Positions 53,667-54,256 of a stretch of 64,000 nt of DNA are shown in pieces. This stretch comes from Callorhinchus milii. Its lineage: Eukaryota. Location: assembly GCF_018977255.1 (NCBI RefSeq), contig NW_024704743.1, forward strand, positions 2,046,001 through 2,110,000, given 5' to 3'. The translations under genes were made by a program, and so were the position numbers. The notes beneath the pieces are model-generated. The model did no database searches, was not told where the DNA came from, and worked only from the letters and a program-made list of their open reading frames with translations. Position 1 is the first letter of the stretch, and every line of letters starts with the position of its first letter.

Positions 53667-54256
53667 ATGGAAGAAAATGAGCAGAATAACAACGGGATGG
53701 ACAACCGAGAGGAACCGAGCGACGAGTCGAACCGAGCCATCATGTTGCCGCTGCTCCAGGCGCCCGGGAATCAGCTGCCGCACAGAATCACCAACTTTTT
53801 CATCGACAACATCTTGCGGCCGGACTTCGGCAAACGGAAAGACGGTCACCGGGAGCACGGGCACGTCCCCGGGAGGGAGAACGTCAGCCCCTCGGCCTTG
53901 GGGTCGGCACAGAGCGGCGGAGGCGGAGGGGGTCCCGCGACGGGAGGAGGAGGTGGAGGTGGTGGTGGTGGTGGCGGTGGAGGGAGGAGGCGGTGGAGGA
54001 GGAGGAGGCGGTGGTGGTGGTGGTGGTGGAGGCGGTGGTGGTGGGCTTCCCAATCCGACCTCCACCGCCGCTTCCAACGCCAAGAAACGGGATGGAGACG
54101 GGGACGGGGCGAGCAAGAGCGGCGAGAGCGGAGATCAGTCACACGCCGGATCCGACTCGGACACTTCCCAAGGCAGTGGCATCGGCGGGTCATCCCAACC
54201 CATGCTCTGGCCTGCGTGGGTTTACTGCACTAGATACTCGGACAGACCATCTTCAG
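53667..54256 (+). CDS. en2: Engrailed-2, coding exon 1 (EH1 Groucho-binding motif, poly-Gly linker, EH2); contains an apparent +1 frameshift near 53982-53984
   Basis: ATG at 53667 opens [55 protein letters not shown] (EH1 = [12 protein letters not shown]). After the Gly tract, the +1 frame reads LPNPT...[21 protein letters not shown] (EH2). It ends at the donor TCAG|GTGAGA (GT at 54257), the conserved engrailed intron position. Confidence 0.95.

What the first reader, a model, noticed from the sequence alone, without database searches (positions are those of the whole stretch)
53943..54045. En2 exon 1 is frameshifted inside a poly-Gly tract
Seen: the Gly tract between Thr (ACG 53940-42) and Leu (CTT 54046-48) is 103 nt, i.e. 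34 codons plus 1. The GGN register slips at GGA-G-GGA (53979-53985). Spliced CDS length is 590+317=907 nt. Read literally, the protein keeps EH1, runs into [12 protein letters not shown] and stops at TAG 54231-54233 (188 aa, no homeodomain). Removing one base gives an intact 301-aa En2. Inference: EH2, the splice sites, the homeodomain and EH5 show no decay, so a consensus indel error in a G-rich repeat is most likely. A real null allele or slippage polymorphism cannot be excluded. Automated annotation would probably split or mis-model this gene.
Basis: partly seen in the sequence, partly recalled or inferred. Interest (0 to 1): 0.7.

Follow-up and report, generated by a model that had tools for sequence, protein, structure and literature searches.

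The report
Probable assembly slip in fish En2
The brain-patterning gene engrailed-2 of a cartilaginous fish is written out of frame inside a long glycine repeat, most likely through a sequencing-consensus error in an otherwise intact, expressed gene, though no read spanning the repeat could be seen to prove it.

Summary
Read literally it gives 188 aa with no homeodomain. The gene is cartilaginous-fish En2; its homeodomain is identical to coelacanth En2, and it is spliced in two RNA-like runs. All 13 shark and ray orthologues are in frame.

No contig bridges the repeat, so the decisive test failed. Indirect evidence is mixed. Four runs from two studies lack 6 of 57 sampled words. In the two laid, the flanks match letter for letter, so the missing words lie over the tract. 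However, one run's contig ends add up to exactly the window's out-of-frame length.

Odds: consensus error 0.83, private real allele 0.08, common real frameshift 0.06, recoding 0.02. The long Gly tract itself seems real: about 34 Gly, against a longest run of 9 in 117 homologues. Low interest unless raw reads confirm 103 nt.

The parts
53667..54256 (+). En2 exon 1, coding part (590 nt; first ATG has A at -3 and G at +4)
   Evidence: homologue search (best 84% identity, Heterodontus en2a)
53677..53679 (+). Second ATG, in the homeodomain frame; as written opens a 298-aa product lacking EH1
   Evidence: open frame expected by chance in 3249 of 5000 shuffles
53796..53816 (+). EH1 core (FFIDNIL), Groucho/TLE-binding repression motif
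   Evidence: invariant in alignment A1; function from PMC13681184 passages
53943..54045 (+). Poly-Gly GGN tract, 103 nt, 68% G, 17 GGT
53982..53984 (+). Register slip: a GGG run where the tract pattern gives GG
53973..54003 (+). Imperfect tandem duplicate: a 16-nt unit carrying the slip (53973-53988) followed by its 15-nt twin (53989-54003)
54208..54256 (+). EH2 ([16 protein letters not shown]), intact, in the downstream frame
54231..54233 (+). TAG ending the literal 188-aa reading, 23 nt before the exon junction
54257..59347 (+). Single GT-AG intron, starting with a long AC/AG repeat
   Evidence: (spliced contigs in X1 and X6)
59348..59664 (+). En2 exon 2, coding part (317 nt) with stop
59395..59565 (+). 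Homeodomain (EH4), PF00046 81.9 bits; 0 of 60 differences from Latimeria and Gastrophryne En2
59566..59655 (+). EH5, PF10525 51.9 bits

Best explanation
The locus is an ordinary, intact, expressed En2 of a cartilaginous fish (probably a chimaera) whose EH1-EH2 linker holds an unusually long poly-Gly tract. The assembly consensus has a small indel error inside that tract, seen as GG written GGG within a duplicated 15-nt unit. Inferred mechanism: run-length or mixed-allele miscalling in a G-rich repeat that short reads cannot correct, because they are error-prone and break up there. The real protein is about 300 aa (Groucho-binding EH1, poly-Gly linker, EH2, homeodomain, EH5) and works as a midbrain-hindbrain patterning transcription factor. 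Shown: gene identity, splicing, intact motifs, breakage of short-read contigs at the tract. Inferred: that the indel is an error, and its exact size; a two-base loss fits the run data a little better than a one-base gain.
For: Runs X1-X4 (2 studies) each hold 0.90 of 57 sampled words = 51 of 57. X1 and X2 were laid and cover every position outside 53937-54047 with 0 other letters and 0 gaps, so the 6 missing words overlap the tract; the window's tract would predict 0 missing. The X1 contig overhangs (38+87) give an in-frame 95 nt if adjacent, which equals the window minus its 16-nt duplicated unit. 13 of 13 shark and ray En2 proteins listed are full-length with a homeodomain and vary at this spot in whole residues. 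Homeodomain has 0 of 60 changes from coelacanth; splice sites used. Short indels causing frameshifts were the commonest errors of unpolished long-read (CLR) vertebrate contigs (PMC8081667, passage). GGT and GGC are known Illumina systematic-error motifs (PMC3295828, passages); the tract has 17 GGT and 4 GGC.
Against: No record bridges the tract and its letters were masked, so nothing directly contradicts the window. The X2 overhangs (45+96) give exactly 111 nt, the window's own out-of-frame length for the masked stretch, at the 30-letter overlap that neighbouring contigs show elsewhere. A single-site fix removes only 27-29 of 571 words, so losing 6 or more sampled words has P about 0.04-0.06. 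The missing words could also reflect the index leaving out repeat words, which I could not test. How the window was sequenced is unknown. One of the runs may be the assembly's own source.
Confidence: 0.83

Rival explanations
1. A real but rare allele: the assembled animal carried a slippage-born frameshift on one or both chromosomes, and other animals are in frame. The allele would escape nonsense-mediated decay and make a 188-aa EH1-only protein with an Arg/Trp-rich tail, plus perhaps a little EH1-less homeodomain protein from ATG 53677. It would be tolerated because En1 compensates.
For: Fits the 6 missing words in other runs as well as an error does. The spot is an indel hotspot across sharks and rays. 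The En2 single-mutant mouse is viable and fertile with a mild cerebellar phenotype, and En2 can replace En1 (PMC3104484, passages). A second engrailed gene is present in X2 and X5 (5 differences in 51 letters over EH2).
Against: Slippage in a triplet repeat normally changes whole units (general knowledge), whereas GG to GGG looks like a run-length miscall. Null alleles of a gene this conserved should be rare, so a randomly chosen animal is unlikely to carry one (inference). No direct read support.
Confidence: 0.08
2. A real, common or fixed frameshift: this lineage has recently lost full-length En2, keeps transcribing and splicing the gene, and relies on En1 or on the EH1-less 298-aa product.
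For: X2 contig ends sum to the window's 111 nt at a 30-letter overlap, while the one-base fix needs an overlap of 31 that neighbouring contigs should not have. The X1 contig ends can also be read on the window's tract with one hidden 46-letter contig between them (arithmetic). High RNA depth does not argue against it, as the stop is 23 nt from the junction. No in-frame protein of this species or a close relative turned up.
Against: If X2's two contigs carried the window's tract letter for letter it should hold 57 of 57 words; it holds 51, as do X1, X3 and X4. No decay anywhere in 907 nt. 13 of 13 shark and ray orthologues intact. The absence of a same-species protein is a blank, not support.
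Confidence: 0.06
3. The extra base is real and is bypassed: ribosomes slip +1 at GGG-AGG-AGG, or the RNA loses a 16-nt unit or a cryptic intron, restoring the frame.
For: The geometry allows a Gly tRNA to re-pair from GGG to GGA. The RNA-like run X1 gives 95 nt (in frame) while the DNA-like run X2 gives 111 nt, if each pair of contigs is adjacent.
Against: No conserved shift site: orthologues are in frame. No stable structure (z -0.84; 42 of 200 shuffles fold as well). The frame-restoring GT-AG pairs printed for the masked tract are 31-79 nt with at most 6 pyrimidines in 18 nt before the AG, and the better-looking acceptors lie in sequence that X1 and X6 contigs keep. X1 and X2 are different samples, and contig adjacency is not shown.
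Confidence: 0.02

Closest known systems
Vertebrate Engrailed-2 (en2a of Heterodontus, Mobula, Carcharodon, Amblyraja, Scyliorhinus; Latimeria En2)
   Same: EH1, EH2, homeodomain and EH5 all present. EH1 half 72-84% identical to shark and ray En2. The EH2-to-end part is sister to shark and ray En2 (support 94/89, just under the starred level) and outside the En1 group (95/95). Gly-rich length-variable linker at the same place.
   Different: About 34 consecutive Gly codons against a longest run of 9 in 117 of the 120 listed homologues that could be scored; written out of frame in this sequence.
Consensus indel errors that frameshift genes in long-read vertebrate assemblies (PMC8081667; PMC5632298)
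   Same: Short indel in an otherwise intact, expressed gene, in sequence that short reads handle badly. PMC8081667 calls short indels the commonest CLR contig error and shows a frameshifted TLK1 left unpolished; PMC5632298 ties indel errors to merged haplotypes (passages only).
   Different: The sequencing method behind this window is unknown, and no read across the tract was seen, so membership is inferred.
Mouse En2 null (as reviewed in PMC3104484)
   Same: Shows that loss of En2 is survivable when En1 is present, which keeps a real allele possible (passages).
   Different: An engineered null. The allele here would escape decay and leave an EH1-only fragment.

Membership tests
Engrailed-class homeobox gene | EH1 repression motif | tested here: met
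   FFIDNIL at 53796, invariant in alignment A1
Engrailed-class homeobox gene | EH2 and the basic linker after it | tested here: met
   Identical to shark En2 from WPAW through RKPKKK; that this linker is called EH3 is recalled
Engrailed-class homeobox gene | Homeodomain (EH4) and EH5 | tested here: met
   PF00046 81.9 bits (cut-off 22.9), PF10525 51.9 bits (cut-off 22.5)
En2 rather than En1 | Groups with En2 proteins and lacks En1-type homeodomain residues | tested here: met
   Tree: with shark/ray En2 (94/89), En1 rows apart (95/95). T23 and L27 of the 60-aa slice as in most En2 rows, A23 and I27 in 3 of 3 En1 rows. A separate engrailed paralogue is seen in X2 and X5.
En2 rather than En1 | Conserved gene neighbours | not testable with these tools
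   No whole genome held. 15 long ORFs elsewhere in the window and the 2 exon-1 readings had no Pfam match (18 sequences scanned out of 332 ORFs listed).
Intact En2 gene | One open frame from EH1 to EH5 | tested here: not met
   907 nt as written
Assembly consensus indel error | Reads of the species disagree with the consensus at the site | tested here: inconclusive
   6 of 57 words missing in X1-X4, flanks identical in the runs laid, tract masked and unbridged; X2 overhangs fit the window's length
Assembly consensus indel error | Lies in error-prone sequence, rest of gene intact | tested here: met
   68% G triplet repeat; no other lesion
Assembly consensus indel error | Assembly made from indel-prone reads | not testable with these tools
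   Origin of the window not given
Pseudogene or old null allele | Further lesions, relaxed sequence, loss of transcription | tested here: not met
   Homeodomain 0 of 60 changes from Latimeria; spliced contigs in X1 and X6. Does not exclude a recent allele.
Programmed +1 ribosomal frameshift | Shift site conserved in orthologues | tested here: not met
   13 of 13 shark and ray En2 proteins are annotated as continuous; their DNA was not seen
Programmed +1 ribosomal frameshift | Stimulatory RNA structure | tested here: not met
   53930-54070 folds at z -0.84
Cryptic frame-restoring intron | Donor, pyrimidine-rich acceptor and a joint in RNA | tested here: not met
   144 GT-AG pairs restore the frame on paper, 25 printed; none printed inside the tract has a pyrimidine tract. 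No joints listed, though rows in the repeat were masked.

The most novel reading that the evidence does not exclude
The frameshift is real and shared by many animals of this chimaera-like fish: a jawed vertebrate that has recently broken En2 through its expanded poly-Gly repeat and now makes a decay-escaping EH1-only fragment and, from ATG 53677, an EH1-less homeodomain protein. This would split the repressor and DNA-binding halves of Engrailed into two products of one mRNA. The X2 contig arithmetic is the one result that points this way.
Probability: 0.06. Interest if true: 0.75.

Novelty: not a real feature. Interest (0 to 1): 0.13.

Why it matters
If it is an error, the value is practical: this En2 will be missing, truncated or mis-started in annotations (no protein of it was found), and it should not be scored as a gene loss in comparative studies of the midbrain-hindbrain boundary or cerebellum. 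The long Gly tract appears real and is a modest lineage-specific feature: the two contig pairs imply at least 95 and 111 nt for the masked stretch if they follow one allele. If the frameshift proved real and common, it would be a natural loss or splitting of En2 in a jawed vertebrate. I found no paper holding En2, holocephal- and pseudogene together, and searches showed nothing on chimaera En2.

Tried and rejected
Whole-genome look: no genome is held for this window, so paralogues, neighbours and the local error rate could not be examined.

Direct read test: the single laying masked 53937-54047. Its '0 gaps' says nothing about the tract, because the 7 dropped loose ends are simply the 7 contigs entering the mask.

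Same-species protein: the literal 188-aa product is not in the collection. No near-identical protein among 120 listed of 260 hits, 45 hits of 50-160 aa, 0 hits of 161-2000 aa, or the best 150 of 271 representatives (top identity in the first rows 57-67%).

Which words the run index samples: 64 guessed hashing schemes; one gave 57 words but put 10, not 7, in the test interval, so the attempt was dropped. An early estimate (P 0.02) assumed X5 holds no words in mid-tract; that assumption is unsafe, and it was replaced.

One-base phase slips in the window's dinucleotide repeats: 5 of 28 adjacent run pairs; no control separates natural slips from errors, so this is not used.

Recoding, cryptic intron and RNA structure: see rivals.

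Earlier notes: nothing near this place or like this sequence; one search listed only unrelated cases. Searches and paper PMC13750608 (passages; 0 occurrences of En2) gave nothing on chimaera En2. One search was seen as a listing only.

Full report
Observation. Between ACG (53940-42) and CTT (54046-48) lie 103 nt: 13 GGN codons, one extra G inside the GGG at 53982-84, and 21 more GGN codons. The coding part of exon 1 runs from ATG 53667 to 54256 (590 nt) and exon 2 from 59348 to the stop at 59664 (317 nt); 907 nt is one more than a multiple of three. Read literally the protein is 188 aa and ends at TAG 54231-33. With X at the break it is 301 aa. tblastn with five shark, ray and coelacanth En2 proteins places the EH1 half and the EH2 half in different frames.

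What the gene is. The N-terminal 93 aa match shark and ray En2 best (84% to Heterodontus). Exon 2 carries a full homeodomain and the engrailed C-terminal signature. In a tree of the EH2-to-end part (31 rows, none dropped; several long branches), the window is sister to six shark and ray En2 proteins (94/89, just under the starred level) and lies outside the En1 group (95/95). Its homeodomain has 0 of 60 differences from Latimeria and Gastrophryne En2. Sitting beside rather than among the elasmobranchs suggests a chimaera; earlier AI notes on this genome say the same (unchecked). Contigs of runs X1 and X6 (RNA is the tool's guess; two studies) join 54256 to the start of exon 2, so the gene is spliced as modelled. 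X2 and X5 hold a second engrailed gene, with 5 differences in 51 letters over EH2 and its own donor, probably En1 (inference).

The tract. All 13 shark and ray En2 proteins listed are continuous and differ at this exact spot by whole Gly-rich blocks (252-284 aa overall). Of 120 listed homologues, 117 could be scored for the EH1-EH2 linker, and the longest Gly run is 9, against about 34 here. The tract is 68% G, with 17 GGT and 4 GGC. The slip sits in a 16-nt unit (53973-53988) that is followed by its 15-nt twin.

The read test. Six runs of one organism, from three studies, hold most of the stretch. X1-X4 each hold 0.90 of 57 sampled words (51), X5 0.88 (50) and X6 0.72 (41). I laid X1, X2, X5 and X6. 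The tool masked 53937-54047 and no record bridges it; 7 of 7 contigs that enter the repeat fail to cross it. Outside the mask, the contigs of this gene show 0 other letters and 0 gaps. The decisive test therefore could not be made, and two indirect readings point in opposite directions.

First reading, for an error. X1 and X2 cover every position outside the mask, so their 6 missing words must overlap the tract (141 of the 571 possible words do). The window's tract predicts none missing, and the same count recurs in four samples of two studies. Weak points: a single-site change removes only 27-29 words, for which 6 or more sampled losses has P 0.04-0.06, so the true tract probably differs by more than one base. 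The index might also omit repeat words, which I could not test (one search failed).

Second reading, from contig ends. The record coordinates show how far contigs reach into the mask: X1 38 and 87 letters, X2 45 and 96, X5 20 and 51. Neighbouring contigs overlap by 30 letters elsewhere in the table. If adjacent, X1's pair gives 95 nt, which is in frame and equals the window minus its 16-nt unit. X2's pair gives 111 nt, exactly the window's out-of-frame length. Yet X2 cannot both carry the window's tract in these two contigs and lack 6 words, unless the index omits them. I judge, by rough reasoning and not by computation, that the two readings about cancel, leaving the prior largely unchanged.

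Most likely mechanism. A consensus indel error (0.83). The rest of the gene is pristine, the lesion is a run-length-type change in the one stretch where short-read contigs collapse, and such indels were the commonest errors of unpolished long-read vertebrate contigs (PMC8081667, passages). PMC5632298 ties indel errors to merged haplotypes (passages), and GGT and GGC are Illumina systematic-error motifs (PMC3295828, passages). The sequencing method of this window is unknown. The real gene then encodes an ordinary En2 of about 300 aa, with EH1 recruiting Groucho/TLE, EH2 binding Pbx, and the homeodomain binding DNA (functions from PMC13681184, passages on EN1).

Rivals. A rare real allele in the assembled animal (0.08) fits the missing words equally well. 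It would be survivable: the En2 mutant mouse is viable and fertile and En2 and En1 are interchangeable in the midbrain (PMC3104484, passages). A common or fixed frameshift (0.06) is supported only by the X2 arithmetic. Neither is excluded by expression: the stop is 23 nt before the only junction, inside the zone that escapes decay (PMC12668785, passages). Lack of decay excludes only an old loss; chimaera genomes are said to evolve slowly (recalled), which weakens it further. Recoding or RNA-level repair (0.02) has no conserved site, no structure (z -0.84) and no plausible intron.

The homeodomain frame is open upstream of the slip (53488-55056), with an ATG at 53677, ten bases after the true start. 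As written, the locus also encodes a 298-aa protein with an unrelated N-terminus, the homeodomain and no EH1. This is expected by chance (3249 of 5000 synonymous shuffles are open). It means a gene predictor could call one plausible-length wrong protein instead of a split gene, and that a real allele would not be a clean null.

Verdict. Observation confirmed; interpretation probably right but unproven; most likely not a biological feature. What remains is an annotation warning and a long, apparently real poly-Gly tract in a chimaera-like En2. Interest 0.13. If raw reads showed 103 nt in several animals it would rise to about 0.75. No supplementary files were read.

Noticed in passing
window 53677-54256 joined to 59348-59664: Second ATG in the homeodomain frame gives a 298-aa EH1-less product as the sequence is written; chance level in shuffles.
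   Followed up: yes
window 53943-54045: About 34 consecutive Gly codons, against a longest run of 9 in 117 scored En2 homologues; contig overhangs suggest the long tract is real.
   Followed up: partly
window 54208-54258 (runs X2 and X5): Contigs of a second engrailed gene, 5 differences in 51 letters over EH2 with a donor at the same place; probably En1.
   Followed up: partly
   Followed up: no
window 54262-54978: Intron 1 opens directly after the donor with about 700 nt of compound AC/AG repeat (29-35 nt units); the 5' leader at 53332-53652 is also rich in TCC, CTT and AG repeats.
   Followed up: no
window 54228-54262 (run X1): A low-depth unspliced contig (14) beside the spliced one (330): pre-mRNA, intron retention or DNA.
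   Followed up: no
P0013: A Hemiscyllium protein named 'engrailed-1-B-like' aligns and groups with shark En2, so it appears misnamed.
   Followed up: partly
window 1-53600 and 59700-64000: No other protein-coding gene found among 15 long ORFs scanned with Pfam; the one ORF printed (49735-50853) is simple repeat.
   Followed up: partly
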